DNA of 61,847 bases. It comes from a virus (Duplodnaviria > Caudoviricetes). Where the stretch lies: positions 1-61,847 of the IMG/VR virus record IMGVR_UViG_3300014913_000013. One strand, written 5' to 3'. The notes below the pieces were generated by a model, which worked only from the letters and a program-made list of their open reading frames with translations, made no database searches and was not told where the DNA came from. The translations under genes were made by a program, and so were the position numbers. The first letter of the stretch is position 1. Every line of letters begins with the position of its first letter. This document shows positions 31,999-54,602 of the stretch, piece by piece.

Positions 31999-32118
31999 AG
32001 GGGTGTAGCTCAGTCAGGGAGAGCGCCGTTATATACTTCTGGCCTTACAGCAAAAGGAGTTCCTTTTAATAGCTTTGGGAGCCGGAGGTCGCTGGTTCGA
32101 ATCCAGCCGCCCCTGCCA
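31999..32118 (+). tRNA. tRNA-Pro(UGG)-like RNA with a 43-nt insertion in the anticodon stem
   Basis: intact acceptor, D and T arms and CCA; CCG|insert 32029-32071|GC-TTTGGGA-GCCGG. Confidence 0.75.
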
Positions 32119-32128
32119 GTAGTTTGAT

Positions 32129-32246
32129 AGGCATAGATGGTTCCTTAACTATCTAGAAGGTAGCTCAATGGTTAGAGCAATCTGGTCTATGCCAGATGGT
32201 TGTAGGTTCAAATCCTACCCTTCTAACCAGCGTATACCATCCGCCT
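32129..32246 (+). ncRNA. bulged-stem RNA unit 2, enclosing a tRNA-like domain
   Basis: AGGC-ATA-GATGGT-TCCTTA...AT-ACCATC-C-GCCT. Confidence 0.7.
32154..32229 (+). tRNA. tRNA-like element with non-canonical anticodon loop (contains CUA)
   Basis: TAGAAGG/CCTTCTA acceptor, D arm, GGTTCAAATCC T arm, ACCA; anticodon loop 6 or 8 nt. Confidence 0.7.
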
Positions 32247-35333: not shown

Positions 35334-38300
35334 ATGAAAAAATTACCTGATACTTTACCCTCATACTACAGCCCAAGAATTTCAAGTGAATTACCTGATT
35401 GTTCAAGCCCACTAACTTTTGATACGTACAGCAGATGCTCAATGCGCTGCCAATATTGCGTACCTAAAGGTTCTGGAATAACAATGGCAGACGGCACTAT
35501 CAAAAAAGTAGAGGAAGTAATAGTTGGCGATATTCTTCTTGGGTACAATGAAAAAACCAAGAAACCGGAAGCCACTGTAGTAAAACAATGTATGAAACAT
35601 ACAGAAAGTATGTATGCAACATTCGTCTTTTCTGGTAATGGGGGTTCTTTTAGCACCACATTAAACCACCCTATTTTTACAAAGGAACAAGGTTGGATTG
35701 ATGCTAGATACGTAAAAAAGGGTATGCATGTACTACGGCATAATAAATTCGCACCTGAAATTACAGAATCTAGGTTTATTGAATTAATCTTTCATAAAAA
35801 AGTACCAAAAGGTGCTTTTTCTGAGAATAAACAATTATACCCTATATGGAACCAAATGGTGCAAAGATGCCATAATCCAAATGCCCATAATTTTAAATAT
35901 TATGGACTACGTGGTGTACAAGTTTGTAAAGAATGGAGATATGACCCCAGACCTTTTTATAAATGGGCTGAAAAACAAGGGTACAGAAAAAGATTAGAAT
36001 TAGATCGTATAAGTACTAATGGTGATTATACGCCATCTAATTGTAGGTGGGTGACACATAAAGAAAATTCATCTAATAGAAATAAGAATGGTAAGGATAA
36101 TAAAACTGGATATACTGGTATATACCAAAAAAACGGCAGATTTTACATTAGAAAACATGGCAAAAATAGGTCGTATACACTTCCAGAACAAGCAGCCATA
36201 TTGTACGATAGAAAAGTAAAACCTGTTAATTTTGAAAGGATCCCATTTGCTGAATTTAGATGGGAGAAAATTAAATATGTAAGAACACATTATAAAACAA
36301 TACAAGTACATAATTTCGAGTGCTGGCCTAATAATGATTATTGTACACAAAATAAGCGCAACACAAGAAAGTTTGAATTACATCATGGAGTTGTAGTGTC
36401 TAATTGTTTCTCACACTCTCAAAAGGATGTGAATCCTGGCACTAAAGATGCCCCATTACAGAGTGTAGATGTAGATAAACTATTTAAAATGATTGATGGT
36501 ACTTCTAAAACCAAAGAAGCTCAGTTATTTTATAAGTATTTCTTTAAGGATAAATTTCTATTCCATTGGGGTGGGTTAGCAGATAGTTTTTGTCACTATG
36601 AAAGAAAGTATGGCACTTCTTACGAAATATTAAAGGGTTTATTAGAAAGAAAGTACCCACTCATGTTCAGTTCTAAAGGCCCTGCTATAACTGATGATAA
36701 ATATATTCAGTTATTTGAGCAGTACGCTTATCAGAATACTGTTGCATTCCAATTCAGCATAGTAACAGCAGATGACAGTTTAGCAAAAAAAGTAGAACCA
36801 GGAGTACCCAGTCCCACAGAACGATTAGAATACATGAAGATGCTTAGTGATATGGGGTACTGGTGTTTAGATAAGGATACAGAGATTTTCCATAAAACTG
36901 AAAATTCTCCATATGTTAGGAAATCTACACTACAACGTGTATATAAAACTGGAAATACTATACAAGTGAACTGTAATGGGAAATGGAAAGAAGCGTACCC
37001 CATGCGTATAGAATATAGTGGTTATTGGTATAAAGTAACACTGCGCAATGGTGCTGAAATAATACAAATAGACAAGCACGAGAATTTCACAGACAGTGGC
37101 ATTAAAAAAGGGGAAAACCTCAAAGTTGGTGACAGATTATTAGTATCTACAAAACCTATGAATTGGGATTGCTCCAGGGGTACATTTGATCTTGGAAGAT
37201 TTGTGGGTTTGTGGGTAGCAGAAGGGTGTTACATAGGAAGTAAACAGGGCTTTAAATTTACCTATGGCACACACGAGGAAGAATACATACAGTTCACCAG
37301 ACAGTTTGCAGAGAAATTAGGAGGGGCTGTCCACATTCAGCATAATGGTAGTTGGACAGATGTGATTGTGTATTCCAATTATATAAAAACATTGCTGGAC
37401 TCTTTTATTATTAGAGGACGTACCTGTGATACTATAACACTAGATGATGTATGTCATTCAATGTCCAAAGATTTTAAAATAGGACTGCTTGCTGGATGGG
37501 AGGAAGGAGACGGGAATGATAAACGCCAGATTGGATCAACATCTATACAACTTATAAAGGATATGTTTGTCCTTGCTAATTCTATAGGAGTTAAGTGTAG
37601 TATGCCCTCTCCCACTATATTGCAGGTGTGTGATATACTTACTAAGAATGCCAAAGTCTACAAATTTAACCCTAATACAAGCCCATACAGTAGAAAAATG
37701 TACTCCGAAGTGGTATCTATAGAAAAGTACAAACGCCCAAGAATAAAATATGCCTACTGCTTAGAAGTCCCAGAAGGGAATTCCTTTGAGCTAACCAATG
37801 GAATAGTAACGCATAACTGCGTGCTGCGACTACGCCCATTCATTATAGGTGTTACAGATGAAACCCTGCCAGAGCTATTACAAAAAGCGTATGAATCTGG
37901 TGCAAAGGCTATAAGCACAGAATTCTACGCATTAGATCATAGGTGTGTTGGTAGTATGAGAAAAGCTACCAACAGAATGGGAGAATTGATGGGCATAAAG
38001 GACATATTTACGTATTTCACAAAGCTCTCACCAAAAGAACGTGGTGGGTATAATAGATTAAATAGGCTCATAAAGGAACCCTACGTAAAATATATGTATA
38101 CATTTTGCCAAGAGCACGATATGGTATTTGCATGTAGTGACCCAGATTACAAAGAACTATGTTCAGGCACAGCTAATTGCTGTGGACTCCCACCAAAAGG
38201 GTACCACCCAACCAGAGATTTGAATAACTGGTCATCTAATCAACTTACCAGTTACGTTATGGAAGCCAGGATAGATTATCACAAAACTGGTAAGTTAAGA

Positions 38301-38699
38301 ATATTTAAATTTGATGAAGTGTACGGCACACCTGATTGGATATTTGATGATATAGCATTAAGCCATCAAGATATAGGGTGTACTAAATATCCATACGCTA
38401 TGCGTAAACAATTAACACTAAAACATTTGTTACAAGAAAAATGGAACAACCTTAAATCATATGCTAATCCACGTAATTATTTACATGGTAAAATAGTGCC
38501 AATAGGTGTAGATAATTCTGATAATATGTTATATAGATATAATCCAAGTGCATATGAAGAAGTGTGGACAAATGATGGTGTAGACTTGTCGTGGGATTGG
38601 AGAGATACACACACAAAATATTACGATATAAATATGTGGGGCAATGATAATATAAAATTGGATAATTGTGAGGAGTGTGCCAATGATACGAGAATTTAA
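35334..38699 (+). CDS. radical SAM protein (spore photoproduct lyase-like) with two inteins; 487 aa when spliced
   Basis: DTYSRCSMRCQY|CF gives CxxxCxxC after splicing; VEPGVPSPTERL; LRLRPFIIG. Confidence 0.85.
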   Translation: MKKLPDTLPSYYSPRISSELPDCSSPLTFDTYSRCSMRCQYCVPKGSGITMADGTIKKVEEVIVGDILLGYNEKTKKPEATVVKQCMKHTESMYATFVFSGNGGSFSTTLNHPIFTKEQGWIDARYVKKGMHVLRHNKFAPEITESRFIELIFHKKVPKGAFSENKQLYPIWNQMVQRCHNPNAHNFKYYGLRGVQVCKEWRYDPRPFYKWAEKQGYRKRLELDRISTNGDYTPSNCRWVTHKENSSNRNKNGKDNKTGYTGIYQKNGRFYIRKHGKNRSYTLPEQAAILYDRKVKPVNFERIPFAEFRWEKIKYVRTHYKTIQVHNFECWPNNDYCTQNKRNTRKFELHHGVVVSNCFSHSQKDVNPGTKDAPLQSVDVDKLFKMIDGTSKTKEAQLFYKYFFKDKFLFHWGGLADSFCHYERKYGTSYEILKGLLERKYPLMFSSKGPAITDDKYIQLFEQYAYQNTVAFQFSIVTADDSLAKKVEPGVPSPTERLEYMKMLSDMGYWCLDKDTEIFHKTENSPYVRKSTLQRVYKTGNTIQVNCNGKWKEAYPMRIEYSGYWYKVTLRNGAEIIQIDKHENFTDSGIKKGENLKVGDRLLVSTKPMNWDCSRGTFDLGRFVGLWVAEGCYIGSKQGFKFTYGTHEEEYIQFTRQFAEKLGGAVHIQHNGSWTDVIVYSNYIKTLLDSFIIRGRTCDTITLDDVCHSMSKDFKIGLLAGWEEGDGNDKRQIGSTSIQLIKDMFVLANSIGVKCSMPSPTILQVCDILTKNAKVYKFNPNTSPYSRKMYSEVVSIEKYKRPRIKYAYCLEVPEGNSFELTNGIVTHNCVLRLRPFIIGVTDETLPELLQKAYESGAKAISTEFYALDHRCVGSMRKATNRMGELMGIKDIFTYFTKLSPKERGGYNRLNRLIKEPYVKYMYTFCQEHDMVFACSDPDYKELCSGTANCCGLPPKGYHPTRDLNNWSSNQLTSYVMEARIDYHKTGKLRIFKFDEVYGTPDWIFDDIALSHQDIGCTKYPYAMRKQLTLKHLLQEKWNNLKSYANPRNYLHGKIVPIGVDNSDNMLYRYNPSAYEEVWTNDGVDLSWDWRDTHTKYYDINMWGNDNIKLDNCEECANDTRI
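35457..36404 (+). mobile_element. intein (316 aa) with HNH/AP2-type homing endonuclease
   Basis: CVPKGS start, TLNHPIF block B, LDRISTNGDYTPSNCRW, ends VVSN|C. Confidence 0.88.
36864..37817 (+). mobile_element. intein (318 aa) with LAGLIDADG endonuclease
   Basis: CLDKDT start, VGLWVAEG and LAGWEEGDG motifs, ends NGIVTHN|C. Confidence 0.92.
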
Positions 38700-41115: not shown

Positions 41116-43047
41116 ATGGCATTTTTCAAAAAGAATACTATAACAAAACCCAACTGTGTGTCATGTGGGCTATATAAAGATTGTTTATCCCCACATATGA
41201 AATTTTCTGGTGAAGGTGGAAAAGAAATATTAATAATAGCAGAAGCTCCTGGTAAATATGAAGATGAAAGGGGGGTACAATTAGTAGGTAAAGCAGGACA
41301 AAGGTTACGTAAAGAGTTACGTTTATTAGGAATAAAATTAAATAAAGATTGTTGGAAAGTAAATGCTGTAAACTGTAGGCCAATAGATAATAAAGGTGGT
41401 AATGCCACACCAACTCCTAAACAAATAGAATGTTGTAGACCATACGTTGTAAACACTATAAAAACGTTAAAACCTAAGAAAATAATATTATTAGGTAATA
41501 TAGCACTACAATCTTTTTATAAAGATAGGCCAAACAAGGGCATAGGTATATCTGCAGGTCTAAAGTTTTGGGATAGTACGTATAAAGCGTGGGTATATCC
41601 TATATGGCACCCATCATATATAGAACGTATGAGTTATGATGATCTGCTTGCAGCTGAATTTGTCAGGTGTCTAAAACGGGCCATTGATGATGACCCTACC
41701 CCATTACAAAAACAATGGAATAAAACCTATCCAATATCTGATTATAAATATGCAGTAAATGCGCTCACAAATTGCCTAAAAAATGATACAATAATTGCAA
41801 TAGACTATGAAACAACCGGCCTTGATATGTATAAGGAAGGGCATAAAACAGTATCATTCGCATGGGCAAATCATAAAGGTTCCTGGTCAGTGCCAGTAGA
41901 ACATCCCACCTTTACTAAAAAACAACAGAATAAAATATTATCAATCATACGTAAGATACTCAAGAAGCGTAAAATAAAGAAAATAACACATAATGTATCT
42001 TTTGAGTATCAATGGACTAAAGCTGTATTGGGTGTAGAGCCGCGTAACTTTTTTTATTGTACACAATTAGCAACCCACGTATTAGATAATAGAAGGGGTA
42101 TAACAAAATTAAAATTCCAGGCATTTATGCGGTGGGGTATAGAAGATTATGATGTATTAAGCAAACAATATATTAAAGCAACTAATACCGGCTTTAATAA
42201 CATGCTTAAAATGCCGTTAGACGCTCTTTTACAGTACAATGCATATGATACCCTATATACTTTTGAATTGTACCGTGAGCAGCTTACAGAGTTTGTAGGA
42301 AATGAACTGAAAGCCTACAAGTTTTTTCATAGAGGGGCACTCACATTATCTGAAATGAGTTACAACGGTATAAAAATAAAAGAGGCTTTTTATTTACAGC
42401 AAAGAAAAGAGTTAGTAAAAAAACGCGACAAACTTGTAAAGAAAATAATGAGTACAAAGGAAGTAAGTACTTTCAAAAAGAGGTACGGCTCATTTAATTA
42501 TGATAGTCCAAAAGACTTACAAGTTATCCTGTTTAAATTAATGAAGTTGAAACCAATAAAAGAGACAAAGACTGGGTACAGTGTAGATGAAGAAGTATTA
42601 GGTAAATTAAACGTGCCCCTTACTAATGATATAGTTAAGGTACGTAAAATAAATAAGATGATATCTACATATATAGATAATTATCTTAAACTAACACAAG
42701 AAGGCGTACTGCACCCCACCTTTTCGCTTAGTAGGGCGCGGTCATTTAGGAGTTGTATTGCGGAAGGTTCTCTTATTTCTACAACTAATGGGTACGTACC
42801 AATTGAAAAAGTGCCAGTAGGTTCTACTGTACATTGTTTTGATTCTAAAATGAAACCAGTCAAAAAAACAGTAGTATGGTCTGGGTGCACTGGATATAAG
42901 AAAGTAATAGCGTTAACTATCAAAAAAAGCTCTGGTGCATTGTGTACTATTAAATGTACACCAGAACATAAAATAAGGTTACAAGACGGATCTTACAAAA
43001 GAGCTGATTCATTATTACCAACAGATAACATATCGGAGGAATATTAA
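41116..43047 (+). CDS. polA: DNA polymerase family A, N-terminal part: family-4 UDG-like domain, 3'-5' exonuclease, start of Pol domain, IntN
   Basis: AEAPGKYED, HPSY (UDG); IDYETTG, HNVSFE, YNAYD (exo); SVDEEVL; ends in an intein N-fragment. Confidence 0.9.
   Translation: MAFFKKNTITKPNCVSCGLYKDCLSPHMKFSGEGGKEILIIAEAPGKYEDERGVQLVGKAGQRLRKELRLLGIKLNKDCWKVNAVNCRPIDNKGGNATPTPKQIECCRPYVVNTIKTLKPKKIILLGNIALQSFYKDRPNKGIGISAGLKFWDSTYKAWVYPIWHPSYIERMSYDDLLAAEFVRCLKRAIDDDPTPLQKQWNKTYPISDYKYAVNALTNCLKNDTIIAIDYETTGLDMYKEGHKTVSFAWANHKGSWSVPVEHPTFTKKQQNKILSIIRKILKKRKIKKITHNVSFEYQWTKAVLGVEPRNFFYCTQLATHVLDNRRGITKLKFQAFMRWGIEDYDVLSKQYIKATNTGFNNMLKMPLDALLQYNAYDTLYTFELYREQLTEFVGNELKAYKFFHRGALTLSEMSYNGIKIKEAFYLQQRKELVKKRDKLVKKIMSTKEVSTFKKRYGSFNYDSPKDLQVILFKLMKLKPIKETKTGYSVDEEVLGKLNVPLTNDIVKVRKINKMISTYIDNYLKLTQEGVLHPTFSLSRARSFRSCIAEGSLISTTNGYVPIEKVPVGSTVHCFDSKMKPVKKTVVWSGCTGYKKVIALTIKKSSGALCTIKCTPEHKIRLQDGSYKRADSLLPTDNISEEY
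42754..43044 (+). mobile_element. split intein N-fragment (97 aa)
   Basis: CIAEGSLI block A, CTPEHKI block B, then stop. Confidence 0.85.
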
Positions 43048-44122: not shown

Positions 44123-46198
44123 CAAAATGTGCCTAAACGTGCACCAGAAGCAAAACGTATTGTACGTTCTGGTATGGTCCCTAGAGAAGGAAGGGTGTTA
44201 GGTGAATGTGATTTCTCAGGTGCAGAGATCTCAACTAGTTGTGTAACTTTAGATACAATCATTGATACTATTCACGGTTCAATGACAATGGGTTCTTTAT
44301 TGCGTAGGCTCAGATTAAAAAAAGACACGTATGTATATTCGTATAGTACTGAAAAAGAAAGGATATGTATATCTAAAGTAACCACTGGTGGTATTACAGG
44401 AAGAAATAAAAAAGTATACAAAGTCACTTTAGATAATGGGTCTACTATCAAAGCTACTTCAGACCATAAATTCATGCTTCGTAATGGTTCCTATGCACAA
44501 CTGTGCGAATTGTCTGTAGGAAATAGTTTAATGCCCTTTTACAAAAAAGCAAAAAGGAGGGCCTGCGATGCTGTTTCCTACGAAGATGTGTATTTGAACA
44601 ATGGGTCACATATATTAGCACATAACTTAATAGCTGAAGATGTACATGGTATAATCATAAAAGGTTCTAATTTACTCGTACATCATAAAGATGGTAATGG
44701 GCTAAACAATGATTTAGATAACTTACAAATAATGGATAGAAGAGAGCATATGCGTATTCATTCTATTCAAGGGTGGAAAAGGAGGCCAAATAGGACATTT
44801 AATAAAGAACTTCTGCGTAAAAGGGCCATAGAATTAAACAAAAAACGTAAAGAAGAGTGGACTGAAAAAGATTGGGAGGAATTTAGCCGTAGAGTTAGTG
44901 AAGGAATACGAACAAAACGTAATGGTAATAGGGGAAAATTCAACCCTATGTATGGAAAAATACAAAGTGATACATGCAAAAAAGCTGTTAGTGCTGCTAA
45001 TAAGGGAAGAGTCCCTTGGTGTAAGGGCAAAAAACTGCCCCCATTGACAGAAGAGCACAAAAACAAACTTAGGGTGCCCTGTCCAGAAGAGAGGAAACTA
45101 CGTATAAGTGCTGCATTAAAAGGTAGGGTACTTTCAAAAGAGCATAGAGAAAAATTACGTATACCTAAAACAGAAGAACATAAAAGAAAAATTGCTATAG
45201 CAAAGAAAAAATGGTGGGAAACAAGAGGATTAGAAAAATGCCATGTATGTGGAAGGTCATTCAAAACAGTAACAAATACTCATCTTAAATATGCGCACGA
45301 TATGACACTAGAGGAATACAAAAAAGTACATAATCATAAAATAGTTTCTATTGAAGAATGTGGGTATGAAAATGTATACAATATAAATGTTGAGGGCACT
45401 CACTGTTACTCTGCTAATGGGGTCATTGTAAAGAACTGTTATTATCATAAGGATCCTACTTTCTATGAGTACCAAACAGAAGGTGGTGGGGATATGCATA
45501 GGGATGCCAGTGCTGAAATACTTAAAATAATTGGTGATGAAGTATCTAAACCTGTACGGCAGGCTACTAAAAGTATATGGACATTTGCACAATTTTATGG
45601 TAGTTACTACGGCTCATGTGCTAAACAGGGGTGGGAGGAATACCCATTACTTGTAGATGATGATGGGGCACCTGTACAAATACGTGGCATTAATATAGAT
45701 GAATGGATGAAAAAAACATTCAAAAACTACAGGGTATTTGAAAATCATCTCAAAAAGTTTGAAGATAAATTTTGGAATGATTGGTTTAAAGTATACACAG
45801 AGTGGAAAAAAAGTGTAGTACAAAAATATAAAAAAGATGGGTACATTGAAACATTCATGGGATTTAGGTTTAAAGGGTACATGAATAGCAAACAATGTAC
45901 TAATTATCCAATCCAAGGCACCTCATTCCATTTACTACTGTACACAGCTTACGCTTTTTGGCAGGAATGTATAAAAAGAAATTTGGATACATTAATAATA
46001 GGTCAGATACACGATTCTTTAATATTAGACATACCTATAGATGAAATTGATATTGTTAGTGAAATACTAGTAGATATAATAAGTAATTTACATAAAAAAT
46101 TTACTTGGATGGATTTCCCTATGGGGCTAGATTTCGAAATTAGTGCCCCATACGAACAAGGTGGGTCATTTGCTAAAATGAAAAAGGTTACTATTTGA
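44123..46198 (+). CDS. polA: DNA polymerase C-terminal part, exon 2, with intein
   Basis: QNVPKR, motif A DFSGAE, motif B RQATKSIWTFAQFYG, NYPIQG, motif C QIHDS. Confidence 0.92.
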   Translation, partial: QNVPKRAPEAKRIVRSGMVPREGRVLGECDFSGAEISTSCVTLDTIIDTIHGSMTMGSLLRRLRLKKDTYVYSYSTEKERICISKVTTGGITGRNKKVYKVTLDNGSTIKATSDHKFMLRNGSYAQLCELSVGNSLMPFYKKAKRRACDAVSYEDVYLNNGSHILAHNLIAEDVHGIIIKGSNLLVHHKDGNGLNNDLDNLQIMDRREHMRIHSIQGWKRRPNRTFNKELLRKRAIELNKKRKEEWTEKDWEEFSRRVSEGIRTKRNGNRGKFNPMYGKIQSDTCKKAVSAANKGRVPWCKGKKLPPLTEEHKNKLRVPCPEERKLRISAALKGRVLSKEHREKLRIPKTEEHKRKIAIAKKKWWETRGLEKCHVCGRSFKTVTNTHLKYAHDMTLEEYKKVHNHKIVSIEECGYENVYNINVEGTHCYSANGVIVKNCYYHKDPTFYEYQTEGGGDMHRDASAEILKIIGDEVSKPVRQATKSIWTFAQFYGSYYGSCAKQGWEEYPLLVDDDGAPVQIRGINIDEWMKKTFKNYRVFENHLKKFEDKFWNDWFKVYTEWKKSVVQKYKKDGYIETFMGFRFKGYMNSKQCTNYPIQGTSFHLLLYTAYAFWQECIKRNLDTLIIGQIHDSLILDIPIDEIDIVSEILVDIISNLHKKFTWMDFPMGLDFEISAPYEQGGSFAKMKKVTI
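44240..45436 (+). mobile_element. intein (399 aa) with HNH endonuclease and NUMOD3-like repeats
   Basis: CVTLDT start, ATSDHKF, VHHKDGNGLNNDLDNL, EEHKxK repeats, ends GVIVKN|C. Confidence 0.9.
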
Positions 46199-51614: not shown

Positions 51615-52391
51615 ATGGGAAATGCTAAATTACATCAATTATTAGCTGTAGAATCAGACCTTGAAGGTAAGTACAAGAGAGTCTGCGAAGAATCAAAAAA
51701 AGTATTCAACAAGCCTGCTATGTTTATGGGGTATCACAGAAGTCTGGTTTCATTTCTTGAAGATGATCCTATTGAGTACCCTGACGAAAATCAAGCTATG
51801 GCTACTACTGTAGAAGATCGTGTGAACTATACTGGTGAATCTATTGCTTCTTACTTGGATGCTTTGTATCAAAAAGAAGCCACTAATCAAAATGCTAAGG
51901 CAGACTTAGTTGTTGATGGGGTTACTATAGGTACAAATCTTCCTGCAACTTTTTTACTTGCATTAGAATCACGTTTGAAGTACATACGTAGTGTGTACGA
52001 GACCATACCAACCCTACCAGCAGGTGTAGAATGGAAACCTTCTGAAGATAAGGGTGAGGGTGTTTGGGATATGGTACACCCTGAAGAAAAGTTGAAAACT
52101 AAAATGACGTTCAAGTCTAAGGTACTTGTAGAAGCGCAATTTCCACCTGAAGGGCGTAGTGGGCAATCACTACCAGCCCAAATAGAAAAATGGGAAGAGC
52201 AGGTACCAGTAGGTAAATTTGTCAAGAATGTATGGTGTAGCATGATAACATCGCATGAAAAGGCAGAAGTACTTGGACGTATAGACAAACTTATACAAGC
52301 AGTAAAAAGGCAACGGCAGCAAGCTAATACAGAACCTGTAGTAAAAGGTAATGTGGGCGCGGCTATTGTAAATTTTATTAATGGTGGGTAA
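51615..52391 (+). CDS. conserved coiled-coil hypothetical protein inside the tRNA cluster
   Basis: GGGGAG RBS; KLHQLLAVE, ATNQNAKAD, LPATFLLALE. Confidence 0.8.
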   Translation: MGNAKLHQLLAVESDLEGKYKRVCEESKKVFNKPAMFMGYHRSLVSFLEDDPIEYPDENQAMATTVEDRVNYTGESIASYLDALYQKEATNQNAKADLVVDGVTIGTNLPATFLLALESRLKYIRSVYETIPTLPAGVEWKPSEDKGEGVWDMVHPEEKLKTKMTFKSKVLVEAQFPPEGRSGQSLPAQIEKWEEQVPVGKFVKNVWCSMITSHEKAEVLGRIDKLIQAVKRQRQQANTEPVVKGNVGAAIVNFINGG

Positions 52392-53145: not shown

Positions 53146-53230
53146 GGGGAGTTGCATGAACTGGTAAATGGTCCGGCTGTAACCCGGAAGCACCACGAGG
53201 TTGGGGGTTCGAATCCCTCGCTCCCCACCA
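53146..53230 (+). tRNA. tRNA-Tyr (GUA)
   Basis: loop CTGTAAC, variable arm, CCA. Confidence 0.88.
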
Positions 53231-53962: not shown

Positions 53963-54248
53963 ATAGGCCCTGTTCTAATAGTATGGGGGAATCTGGGTCT
54001 ATAGGAATAGCACAACCATACGACGATTCATTGAAGAAAATATTTAAGCATACTCCAACATGGAGGGGAAATTCTGATTACACAGACAATATTACTACTA
54101 CAACCTATTCTGCTGCAAGTTTGTTAGGATAATATAATATTGAGGTAGTATTGGTGTTAGTTTATGGTGTAATGCCTAGATAGGTGATAGGGTCATCTAT
54201 CCAATCAGTATTAGTTTTATGCCTCAATAGTTTGATTTTATGTAGGGA

Positions 54249-54510
54249 GGAGTAAACGGTAGCAAATCCTAATTAATTACAAGTGGGGGTTCGAATCCCT
54301 CTCCGGCCTCCATTGTAGGGGGTACAAAGTAAAGAGTAAATGGGATGACCTTATGTTAAAGGGTGCTGGAAAAGCGCGAGTCTGTAAAAGTTATCACCCA
54401 TGATAGAACGTGCCCGTTAGGTCACTTTGTACCCCCTCTAATTAAGGCCGGATCGTCTAATGGTAGGACAGTTTTTGTAAGAATGAGATTTGCTAGTTGA
54501 AGGAAACTCT
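54249..54510 (+). ncRNA. circularly permuted tRNA-like RNA
   Basis: T arm + TCCGGCC-T-CCA (54285-54312) precedes GGCCGGA + D arm (54446-54469); flanks pair (TAGCAAATC/GATTTGCTA, TTACAA/TTGTAA). Confidence 0.72.
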
Positions 54511-54529
54511 GGTAATGTACATAGACGTA

Positions 54530-54602
54530 TAACGAATAGCTCAGTAGGTAGAGCATATGCCTGTAACGCATAATGTCGAGGGTTCAATTCCCTCTTCGTG
54601 AA
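54530..54602 (+). tRNA. atypical tRNA(GUA), short variable loop, no CCA
   Basis: D arm, TATGC-CTGTAAC-GCATA, T arm; acceptor mismatch. Confidence 0.6.

What the first reader, a model, noticed from the sequence alone, without database searches (positions are those of the whole stretch)
54249..54510. Circularly permuted, anticodon-less tRNA-like RNA
Seen: the 3' half (T arm GGGGG-TTCGAAT-CCCTC, acceptor strand TCCGGCC, T, CCA at 54285-54312) lies upstream of the perfectly complementary 5' half (GGCCGGA, D arm GTCT-AATGGT-AGGAC at 54446-54469). The outer flanks pair into a long interrupted helix where the anticodon arm should be (54277-82 with 54475-80; 54260-68 with 54487-95; 54249-53 with 54506-10). 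Known: this T-before-D topology occurs in YrlA Y RNAs, two-piece tmRNAs and permuted algal/archaeal tRNAs. It has no G3-U70 or tag ORF (not tmRNA) and, unlike YrlA, has an encoded CCA and a 133-nt intervening segment. Inference: processing gives a two-piece, possibly chargeable tRNA mimic, perhaps another ligand for the TROVE-like protein.
Basis: partly seen in the sequence, partly recalled or inferred. Interest (0 to 1): 0.85.

Follow-up and report, generated by a model that had tools for sequence, protein, structure and literature searches.

The report
Phage tRNA mimic linked to DUF7873
This is a real, conserved phage non-coding RNA shaped like a tRNA whose two halves are encoded in swapped order and which has no anticodon; it is a divergent relative of bacterial YrlA "Y RNAs" that travels with an uncharacterised protein gene (DUF7873), not with the usual Ro60 protein.

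Summary
At 54249-54510 a T arm, a 3' acceptor strand and UCCA lie upstream of the complementary 5' acceptor strand and a D arm, and the flanks form a long outer helix (fold z -4.4). It is not a one-off. Of 81 phage loci that carry a DUF7873 gene (window 51615-52391), 76 have the same permuted tRNA-like RNA downstream on the same strand. Evidence not required by my scanner supports the structure: the outer helix co-varies, the Levitt 15:48 tertiary pair co-varies, and 58 of 67 unique elements encode NCCA. Short-capped relatives match Rfam YrlA (RF02553) only below its threshold (30-49 bits against 69). The window element and its closest homologue do not match it at all. No TROVE/Ro60 gene is in the window. 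Only 4 of 36 related phage records have one, and there Ro60 has its own YrlA-like RNAs. My best reading is a YrlA-like tRNA mimic that RNase P and 3' trimming open at the acceptor into a two-piece RNA with a CCA end, working with DUF7873. Processing, protein binding and function are inferred, not shown. The window's 133-nt insert is an extreme of a variable cap. Uniform charging is unlikely because the acceptor stems vary. I class it as a new variant of a known kind.

The parts
51615..52391 (+). DUF7873 gene (258 aa from the ATG; PF25283). It is the only protein gene shared by all related loci and is the candidate protein partner.
   Evidence: Pfam E 1.2e-60. 395 relatives, the closest listed as 258 aa. 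It is the only ORF cluster present in all 81 loci. In the window, 11 tRNA genes lie between it and the RNA.
54218..54233 (+). Conserved upstream block (family consensus roughly TTGnCCCnACAGnTTTA) just 5' of the outer helix. Its role is unknown: it may be the 5' end of the RNA, a processing site or a binding site.
   Evidence: Conserved columns in alignment A2. It is not repeated in the window beyond chance (8 matches against 8.08 expected), so it is not a general phage promoter.
54250..54283 (+). 5' strand of the outer helix that stands where the anticodon arm would be (segments 54250-52, 54260-68, 54272-74, 54277-83). It includes an AGUA motif at 54251-54254.
   Evidence: Fold. Flanks of the same element pair better than flanks of different elements across the family.
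54284..54284 (+). U48 equivalent, the Levitt-pair partner of A15 (54460).
   Evidence: 15:48 covariation across the family: G-C 44, A-U 13, A-C 6, G-U 0; Fisher p = 2.6e-9.
54285..54301 (+). T arm (5-bp stem, loop TTCGAAT).
   Evidence: T-stem pairs with compensatory changes.
54302..54312 (+). 3' acceptor strand (7 nt), discriminator U and encoded CCA.
   Evidence: NCCA in 58 of 67 unique family members.
54313..54445 (+). 133-nt cap or insert: a long hairpin with an internal multi-branch region. It would be removed if the acceptor is opened.
   Evidence: Folds alone with z -4.41. The homologue in L009 has a 49-nt shorter version with compensatory changes in the basal stem. Family cap lengths run from 7 to 147 nt. 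No Rfam hit.
54446..54454 (+). 5' acceptor strand (7 nt) followed by U8 and C9. The predicted RNase P site lies between 54445 and 54446.
   Evidence: All 7 acceptor pairs vary with compensatory changes. The cleavage site is inferred.
54455..54469 (+). D arm (4-bp stem, 7-nt loop AATGGTA).
54470..54509 (+). 3' strand of the outer helix (54474-80, 54482-84, 54487-95, 54507-09) with the conserved GAAGGAAAC stretch at 54499-54507.
54530..54602 (+). tRNA gene directly downstream. Its 5' maturation could set the 3' end of the mimic.
   Evidence: A tRNA starts within 260 nt after the D arm in 31 of 70 family members.

Best explanation
The locus encodes a structured non-coding RNA of the YrlA (Y RNA-like) kind. 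It has a tRNA L-shaped core (T arm, 7-bp acceptor stem, D arm, Levitt pair) encoded in permuted order, and a long interrupted helix formed by its own 5' and 3' flanks stands in place of the anticodon arm. It belongs to a large phage family that sits downstream of a DUF7873 gene on the same strand, in phages that mostly lack Ro60. Proposed mechanism, inferred: the RNA is transcribed together with the neighbouring tRNAs. RNase P cuts 5' of G54446. The cap (133 nt here) is then trimmed back to the encoded CCA at 54312. This leaves two pieces of roughly 65-100 nt held together by the acceptor stem and the outer helix, as published for M. smegmatis YrlA. The conserved internal loops of the outer helix, and/or the tRNA elbow, are bound by DUF7873 to form a phage ribonucleoprotein. 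What that particle does is not shown. The tRNA-like part most likely serves as a handle or a decoy for host tRNA-binding factors.
For: Structure in the window. Family linkage: the strict scan finds the element in 70 of 81 non-duplicate DUF7873 loci, window included. My covariance model R1 adds 6 more at 51.8-88 bits, giving 76 of 81. Three of the five misses have under 200 nt of sequence downstream of the gene. Controls: 8 hits in 568 kb elsewhere on the same strand and 0 in 637 kb of the opposite strand. In 37 whole phage records the top R1 hit lies beside DUF7873 (I checked coordinates for those I compared). Evidence that the scanner did not require: RNAalifold finds a 4-bp proximal helix with compensatory changes. 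Cognate flank duplexes average -24.4 kcal/mol against -15.7 for non-cognate pairs, p = 2.5e-23, and each of the three helix segments is significant on its own. The Levitt pair co-varies, p = 2.6e-9. Processing signals: NCCA in 58 of 67. U at -1 in 38 of 65 and UAU at -3..-1 in 27 of 65. 13 of the window's 14 tRNAs also end in CCA, and neighbouring tRNAs end in CCA more often where the element has CCA (119 of 154 against 11 of 21, p = 0.03). Kinship with YrlA: 7 of 7 short-capped members tested hit RF02553 at 30-48.7 bits with E <= 0.02, similar to the Ro60-linked phage elements used as controls (30.5-46.8 bits). The closest homologue, L009, is 76% identical over the whole element with a fully co-varying acceptor stem. 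Precedent for RNase P cleavage and a CCA end in a YrlA: PMC4201824 (Results sections read). The element lies in unannotated or mis-annotated gaps after DUF7873 in 4 of 4 cultured phages checked.
Against: There is no expression or end-mapping data; no RNA run was listed. R1 does not align the window element in one piece (32.8 and 24.4 bits), because of the 133-nt insert. Rfam YrlA gives no hit for the window or for L009, so the window's membership rests on its homology to L009 and on the shared architecture. NCCA is absent in 9 of 67 elements, and in Ralstonia phage RSL1 and Gordonia phage Ronaldo the cap looks like a closed extension of the acceptor, so opening may not be universal. In the window, position -1 is A and can pair with U73, which is not the preferred RNase P context. 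The link to DUF7873 is genomic only. The protein is near neutral (median pI 7.0) and matches no known fold or family. In the window the RNA lies 1.9 kb from the gene, against a family median of 177 nt.
Confidence: 0.6

Rival explanations
1. Closed-loop YrlA-like RNA. The acceptor stem is never opened, and the NCCA...UAU cap and the window's long hairpin are structural or protein-binding features. The RNA acts as one piece, like most YrlA RNAs.
For: Most YrlAs are described as closed and as poor RNase P substrates (10.1101/312249, passages read). In RSL1 and Ronaldo the cap extends the acceptor helix without a CCA. In the window, U73 can pair with A(-1), and the cap is a stable helix stacked on the acceptor.
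Confidence: 0.22
2. Decoy or sponge for host factors that attack or use tRNA acceptor ends or elbows, such as tRNA-targeting defence nucleases, CCA-modifying toxins or modification enzymes. DUF7873 would be a helper or an unrelated neighbour. This is a rival about function and is compatible with the same anatomy.
For: The RNA sits in phage tRNA clusters. It keeps the tRNA tertiary pairs and the CCA but has no anticodon. Its acceptor sequences vary freely, as expected if shape rather than identity matters.
Against: There is no direct evidence. DUF7873 has no PADLOC match. The conserved internal loops of the outer helix are not needed for a simple decoy.
Confidence: 0.15
3. A two-piece tmRNA remnant consisting only of the tRNA-like domain, which titrates SmpB or interferes with trans-translation. 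A comparable case was suggested for the TLD-only sequence of mycobacteriophage DS6A.
For: It has the same gene order as permuted tmRNA genes, an encoded CCA, and a helix in place of the anticodon arm. PMC4131195 (passages read) notes a phage tmRNA reduced to the tRNA-like domain and its possible inhibitory role.
Against: G3:U70 occurs in 1 of 65. The RNA has a full 4-bp D stem. ARAGORN makes no tmRNA call. For the window, Rfam gives only a 17-nt T-arm fragment hit to tmRNA and no tmRNA_permuted hit. Related phages carry separate full tmRNAs.
Confidence: 0.04
4. A true circularly permuted tRNA gene whose outer ends are joined after transcription to make a normal, decoding tRNA.
For: The topology matches the algal and archaeal permuted tRNA genes cited in 10.1101/312249 (passage read).
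Against: No anticodon loop can be formed. The flanks make helices of 20-30 bp with variable length and open ends. No splicing-type endonuclease or conserved joint was seen. The conserved AGUA and GAAAG-type internal loops are unlike an anticodon arm.
Confidence: 0.02
5. Chance juxtaposition or debris of two neighbouring tRNA genes, or a misassembly.
For: The model R1 also scores junctions of tandem tRNA genes at 20-45 bits. The window is rich in tRNA genes.
Against: The acceptor is perfectly complementary, the outer helix co-varies, and the element is conserved in 76 of 81 loci at a fixed place and strand. Contigs from three runs agree.
Confidence: 0.01

Closest known systems
YrlA (Y RNA-like A; Rfam RF02553), the tRNA-mimicking Y RNAs bound by bacterial and phage Ro60 (Rsr)
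   Same: The order is T arm, then acceptor-like stem, then D arm. The 5' and 3' ends pair into a long stem in place of the anticodon arm. The tRNA tertiary pairs, including a co-varying Levitt pair, are kept (PMC4201824 sections). Short-capped members score 30-49 bits with RF02553.
   Different: All scores are below the family threshold of 69 bits, and the window scores nothing. There is no Ro60/TROVE gene in the window, and only 4 of 36 related records have one. The Rsr motif GNCGAAN0-1G is present in 3 of 65. The constant neighbour is DUF7873. The acceptor is regularly 7 bp with an encoded NCCA. The D loop is mostly 7 nt (ARUGGUA), against 8 nt (ARUUGGYA) in the Ro60-adjacent elements of the same phages.
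M. smegmatis YrlA, which is cleaved by RNase P and receives CCA
   Same: It has a 7-bp acceptor stem and is opened into two Ro60-bound pieces, one of which ends in CCA (PMC4201824). This is the published model for the processing proposed here.
   Different: There, CA is added after cleavage and the RNA lies beside rsr. Here the CCA is encoded, the cap can be very long, and no rsr is present. Processing has not been tested here.
Two-piece (circularly permuted) tmRNA, and the TLD-only tmRNA of mycobacteriophage DS6A
   Same: Permuted gene order, an encoded CCA, an excised intervening segment, and a helix in place of the anticodon arm.
   Different: There is no tag reading frame, no G3:U70 (1 of 65) and a full D stem. 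Neither ARAGORN nor Rfam makes a tmRNA call.
Circularly permuted tRNA genes of red algae and archaea
   Same: The 3' half is encoded before the 5' half, and the acceptor is initially closed.
   Different: Those yield normal tRNAs with anticodons through a circular intermediate. Here no anticodon loop exists.

Membership tests
YrlA (Rfam RF02553) | Score at or above the Rfam gathering threshold (69 bits) | tested here: not met
   Window: no YrlA hit even at E <= 10. L009: none at E <= 1. Seven short-capped relatives score 30-48.7 bits. Positive controls beside phage Ro60 genes also fall below the threshold: 30.5-46.8 bits and 60.7 bits.
YrlA (Rfam RF02553) | Permuted tRNA-like module (T stem-loop, acceptor-like stem, D stem-loop) with a terminal stem formed by the 5' and 3' ends | tested here: met
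YrlA (Rfam RF02553) | tRNA tertiary interactions, with compensatory change at the Levitt pair 15:48 | tested here: met
   G-C 44, A-U 13, A-C 6, G-U 0; p = 2.6e-9. The window has A15 and U48.
YrlA (Rfam RF02553) | Encoded within about 4 kb of a Ro60/TROVE gene on the same strand (criterion of PMC4201824) | tested here: not met
   No PF05731 or PF25045 match in the 61.8-kb record. The record is estimated 65% complete, so a distant gene cannot be excluded. Among relatives, 4 of 36 records have TROVE and only L047 has it adjacent.
YrlA (Rfam RF02553) | GNCGAAN0-1G motif near the 5' end (putative Rsr contact) | tested here: not met
   Absent from the window's 5' flank. Present in 3 of 65 family 5' flanks.
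YrlA (Rfam RF02553) | Bound by Ro60/Rsr | not testable with these tools
   This needs immunoprecipitation or a binding assay.
tmRNA, two-piece or permuted (RF04321; ARAGORN) | G3:U70 alanine identity pair | tested here: not met
   The window has C3:G70. G:U occurs in 1 of 65.
tmRNA, two-piece or permuted (RF04321; ARAGORN) | Tag reading frame and pseudoknots; detection by tmRNA models | tested here: not met
   ARAGORN makes no tmRNA call. Rfam gives only a 17-nt T-arm match to RF00023 at 10.5 bits and no RF04321 hit.
Circularly permuted tRNA genes | An anticodon stem-loop that can be reconstituted by joining the outer ends | tested here: not met
   The outer flanks form long open helices of variable length with no 7-nt loop.
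DUF7873-linked tRNA-like RNA (family defined here, model R1) | Lies downstream of a DUF7873 gene on the same strand | tested here: met
   The window gene is at 51615-52391 and the RNA starts 1.9 kb downstream on the + strand with only tRNA genes and small ORFs between. The family median distance is 177 nt.
DUF7873-linked tRNA-like RNA (family defined here, model R1) | A single full-length match to model R1 | tested here: inconclusive
   The window is split into 32.8 and 24.4 bits by its insert. Its homologue L009 scores 69.3 bits in one piece, and the window aligns to L009 at 76% identity.

The most novel reading that the evidence does not exclude
DUF7873 and this RNA form a previously unrecognised, Ro60-independent phage ribonucleoprotein. 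A protein of unknown fold grips the helix that replaces the anticodon arm, somewhat as SmpB does for tmRNA or Ro60 does for Y RNA. The RNase P-opened, CCA-ended split tRNA mimic then engages host tRNA machinery. It could be charged, enter the ribosome, or absorb host anti-phage enzymes that attack tRNA ends. If so, DUF7873 would be the first candidate for the 'unknown factor' that the YrlA structure paper proposed to recognise the tRNA-like module. The Ro60-DUF7873-RNA operon in L047 would then mark a functional link between the two systems.
Probability: 0.2. Interest if true: 0.9.

Novelty: new variant of a known kind. Interest (0 to 1): 0.72.

Why it matters
YrlA RNAs were found by searching only genomes that encode Ro60, and what their tRNA-like half binds is still unknown. 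This finding shows a large set of YrlA-like tRNA mimics in phages that mostly lack Ro60. They are tied to one uncharacterised protein family and usually carry the signals of tRNA end maturation. The set includes cultured phages of Rhizobium, Vibrio, Klebsiella, Gordonia and Ralstonia, and the Lak megaphages, where the RNA is unannotated. That gives a concrete protein candidate and workable phage-host pairs for asking what such mimics do. It also points to a gap in annotation: Rfam thresholds, ARAGORN and the deposited records all miss these RNAs.

Tried and rejected
Rfam at gathering and at E-value thresholds gave nothing usable for the window element.

A nucleotide search of the phage collection with the locus matched only the downstream tRNA.

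Exact-pattern scans of viral contigs with stretches of the element found only the L009 contig and one chance match, L007.

Searches for what DUF7873 is all came back empty or uninformative:
- PHROGs, NCBIfam, PADLOC and PDB sequence searches, with both the single sequence and the profile, found no family.
- Foldseek against PDB and BFVD gave nothing at E <= 0.001.
- VIA-align wide gave a best Z of 8.3 to a designed helical protein, within the stated background for helical models.
- The protein atlas returned only DUF7873 clusters.
- A search for longer, fused forms found none, which the tool itself rates as weak evidence.

The genome-contig scan found only 10 loci, all on MAG contigs. The patterns it used were narrow, so divergent bacterial copies may have been missed.

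Expression: no RNA holder was listed for the stretch.

I tested whether the conserved upstream block is a general phage promoter. It is not repeated in the window beyond chance. The sigma-70 and terminator scans found nothing on the + strand.

The second, tandem 'type B' permuted element in L045 folds no better than shuffles (z -0.01), so I left it as an aside.

Literature: 'DUF7873' appears in 0 papers. Searches on 'permuted tRNA' with phage, on tRNA-like with phage and 'lacks an anticodon', on Y RNA with bacteriophage, tRNA-like and Ro60, and on tRNA-like with phage-encoded and tRNA gene cluster found no description of this RNA-protein pair. The library lacks most subscription journals. The 2020 Annual Review on Ro60 and Y RNAs was not held. 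Supplementary tables of PMC4201824, which list the YrlA hits, could not be seen and may include some of these phages.

Full report
WHAT IS THERE. The window is a complete IMG/VR virus record of 61.8 kb, estimated 65% complete. It comes from a large phage with replication genes, inteins and a cluster of 14 tRNA genes. In order it has a T arm (54285-54301), a 7-nt 3' acceptor strand, U73 and CCA (54302-54312), a 133-nt segment (54313-54445), the perfectly complementary 5' acceptor strand (54446-54452), U8 and C9, and a D arm (54455-54469). The flanks pair into an interrupted helix. An unconstrained fold of 54240-54520 gives all of these elements, with z = -4.38 and none of 200 shuffles folding as well. 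The 133-nt segment is itself a stable branched hairpin, z = -4.41. ARAGORN calls no tRNA or tmRNA here. Rfam reports only a T-arm fragment. Contigs of two runs that may be the source span the region with no difference. Two overlapping contigs from a different study cover 54199-54557 with a single C>T change that keeps a G-U pair. I saw no sign of misassembly.

IT IS A FAMILY TIED TO ONE GENE. The gene at 51615-52391, inside the tRNA cluster, is a DUF7873 protein (PF25283, E 1.2e-60). Fetching loci that encode its relatives and scanning them with a simple descriptor showed the same permuted element again and again. The descriptor required a perfect 5-bp T stem with a T-loop motif, a 7-bp acceptor closed within 400 nt (200 nt when candidates were selected), and a D arm. 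The element appeared in 70 of 81 non-duplicate loci, always on the DUF7873 strand, with the T arm a median of 177 nt after the stop codon. A covariance model (R1) built from 36 short-capped members recovered six of the misses at 51.8-88 bits and one more weakly at 23.9 bits. Three other misses have fewer than 200 nt of sequence downstream, and one contig ends 1.9 kb after the gene. The count is therefore 76 of 81. The descriptor is specific: it made 74 hits in 69 kb of the expected zone, 8 in 568 kb elsewhere on the same strand, and 0 in 637 kb of the opposite strand. Clustering of all neighbouring ORFs found no other gene shared across the loci.

THE WINDOW'S CLOSEST HOMOLOGUE. L009 aligns to the window at 76% identity over the whole element. 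Every acceptor pair has changed on both sides, there are compensatory changes in the T stem, D stem, outer helix and basal cap stem, and the cap is 49 nt shorter.

EVIDENCE THE DESCRIPTOR DID NOT IMPOSE.
- RNAalifold adds a 4-bp proximal helix in the place of the anticodon stem, with compensatory changes.
- The 5' and 3' flanks of the same element pair much better than flanks from different elements: mean -24.4 against -15.7 kcal/mol, p = 2.5e-23.
- Each of the three helix segments is significant alone: p = 1.8e-8, 2.6e-20 and 3e-4.
- Position 15 of the D loop co-varies with the base before the T stem, which is the Levitt pair: G-C 44, A-U 13, A-C 6, G-U 0; p = 2.6e-9. The window has A15 and U48. 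This argues for a real tRNA-like L shape.
- The nucleotides after the acceptor are NCCA in 58 of 67 unique elements, although the rest of the cap is unconserved and 7-147 nt long.
- The base before the 5' acceptor strand is U in 38 of 65, and UAU occupies -3..-1 in 27 of 65.
- Neighbouring tRNA genes end in CCA more often where the element has CCA: 119 of 154 against 11 of 21, p = 0.03.

WHAT IT IS RELATED TO. The architecture is that of YrlA, the tRNA-mimicking Y RNA bound by bacterial Ro60 (PMC4201824, Results read; 10.1101/312249, passages read). Rfam holds a YrlA model, RF02553. As positive controls, elements beside Ro60 genes score 30.5-46.8 bits in Gordonia phage Sixama, mycobacteriophage Bxz1 and an IMG/VR jumbo phage, and one beside the Ro60 gene of L047 scores 60.7 bits. 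All are under the 69-bit threshold. Seven of seven short-capped DUF7873-linked elements score 30-48.7 bits. The window and L009 score nothing, presumably because of their long caps. The family is therefore a divergent relative of YrlA.

WHERE IT FAILS THE YrlA CRITERIA. No TROVE or Ro60-vWA domain is in the window. Only 4 of 36 related records have TROVE. The proposed Rsr-contact motif occurs in 3 of 65 5' flanks. Where a phage has both genes, each has its own RNAs. In record G016, DUF7873 and its RNA lie near 126 kb, while Ro60 and three or four YrlA-like RNAs lie near 329 kb. In L047 a Ro60 ortholog (vWA_Ro60 E 4e-23) overlaps the start of DUF7873 and the RNA follows. That is one operon-like arrangement linking the two systems. 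The Ro60-adjacent elements that I fetched also have 7-bp acceptors, and some carry NCCA caps, so the encoded CCA is not unique to the DUF7873 set. The clearest sequence difference I saw is a 7-nt D loop against an 8-nt one.

WHAT IT IS NOT. It is not a tmRNA. G3:U70 occurs in 1 of 65, the D stem is full, and there is no tag or tmRNA model hit. It is not a permuted gene for a decoding tRNA, because no anticodon loop can be formed. It is not tRNA debris, given the conservation and covariation above.

HOW IT PROBABLY WORKS. Shown: the RNA structure is conserved, tRNA-like and gene-linked. Inferred from the conserved 7-bp acceptor, the NCCA, the U at -1 and the M. smegmatis precedent: RNase P opens the acceptor 5' of 54446, and the cap is trimmed to the CCA at 54312. 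That leaves two pieces held together by the acceptor stem and the outer helix. The 3' end may be set by maturation of the tRNA that starts at 54530; a tRNA follows within 260 nt in 31 of 70 members. Inferred from linkage only: DUF7873 binds the RNA, perhaps at the conserved internal loops of the outer helix. An AGUA-type motif is present on the 5' strand in 30 of 65 and a GAAA-type motif on the 3' strand in 35 of 65.

LIMITS OF THE INFERENCE. Uniform aminoacylation is unlikely, since the discriminator and all acceptor pairs vary. Opening may not be universal. Nine of 67 elements lack CCA, and the RSL1 and Ronaldo caps look like closed extensions of the acceptor. In the window, position -1 is A and can pair with U73. 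DUF7873 itself gave no functional clue from any family, sequence or fold search. It is near neutral in charge.

NOVELTY AND REACH. DUF7873 genes occur in 85 deposited phage genomes: Vibrio 29, Prevotella Lak phages 15, Rhizobium 12, Klebsiella 7, Gordonia 7, Serratia 6 and others. In the four I opened, R1 finds the RNA after the gene (76.8, 54.2, 50.3 and 48.8 bits). It lies in unannotated gaps in three of them and partly under a small annotated ORF in the fourth. No paper in the searchable library mentions DUF7873, and my other searches found no description of this pairing. The original YrlA survey searched only genomes annotated with TROVE proteins, which would have missed these. Supplements and several subscription reviews could not be read. 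I class the finding as a new variant of a known kind.

Noticed in passing
window 31999-32115: A tRNA-like gene (Rfam tRNA 45.9 bits, 117 nt) with about 45 extra nucleotides in the anticodon-arm region and an encoded GCCA. ARAGORN does not call it. It could be a small intron or another tRNA with a remodelled anticodon arm.
   Followed up: partly
window 32154-32229: ARAGORN calls a tRNA of undetermined identity with a four-base anticodon (ctat) in an enlarged loop that contains CUA. It is a possible suppressor or frameshift tRNA. Model R1 gives a 38-bit hit across the junction of this gene and the previous one (32057-32212), which I take to be a tandem-tRNA artefact.
   Followed up: partly
window 54530-54602: The tRNA directly after the mimic is a 73-nt class-I-shaped tRNA with a GUA (Tyr) anticodon, an A2-G71 mismatch and no encoded CCA. 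The other 13 tRNAs of the window end in CCA, and a normal long-arm tRNA-Tyr lies at 53146-53230. Its counterpart in L002/L009 has an aberrant anticodon loop.
   Followed up: no
L045 5063, L051 5087, L055 5120, L080 5012; L089 3380 (Klebsiella phage KpLz-2_45): A second permuted T->acceptor->D element lies in tandem with the first. It has a class-II-like D arm (3-bp stem, long loop) and mostly NCCA. The L045 copy folds no better than shuffles.
   Followed up: partly
L047 2398-4753; records G016 near 329.5-330.1 kb and G011 near 13.06-13.19 kb: In L047 a Ro60 ortholog overlaps the start of DUF7873, with two closed-loop YrlA-like RNAs upstream (T arms at 139 and 1479). In G016 and G011, arrays of YrlA-like RNAs lie beside Ro60, some of them with NCCA caps.
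   Followed up: partly
window 54218-54233 and the same place in most family members: A conserved block of about 25 nt (TTGnCCCnACAGnTTTA-like) lies just 5' of the outer helix. In several members the TTGNCC part is complementary to the bases after TTTA, which suggests a hairpin. Its role is unknown.
   Followed up: partly
window 35334-38699, 41116-43047, 44129-46198: Intein/Hint domains occur in a radical-SAM-like ORF and in a family A DNA polymerase. The polymerase is split into two ORFs with an HNH/intein segment and has an N-terminal uracil-DNA-glycosylase-like domain.
   Followed up: no
L079 6537-6893; L102 6435-6856 (Gordonia phage Sixama): Full-length phage-encoded tmRNA genes (Rfam 89.6 and 88.1 bits) lie close to the tRNA-mimic loci. 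The Sixama one sits in a gap that is unannotated in the record.
   Followed up: no
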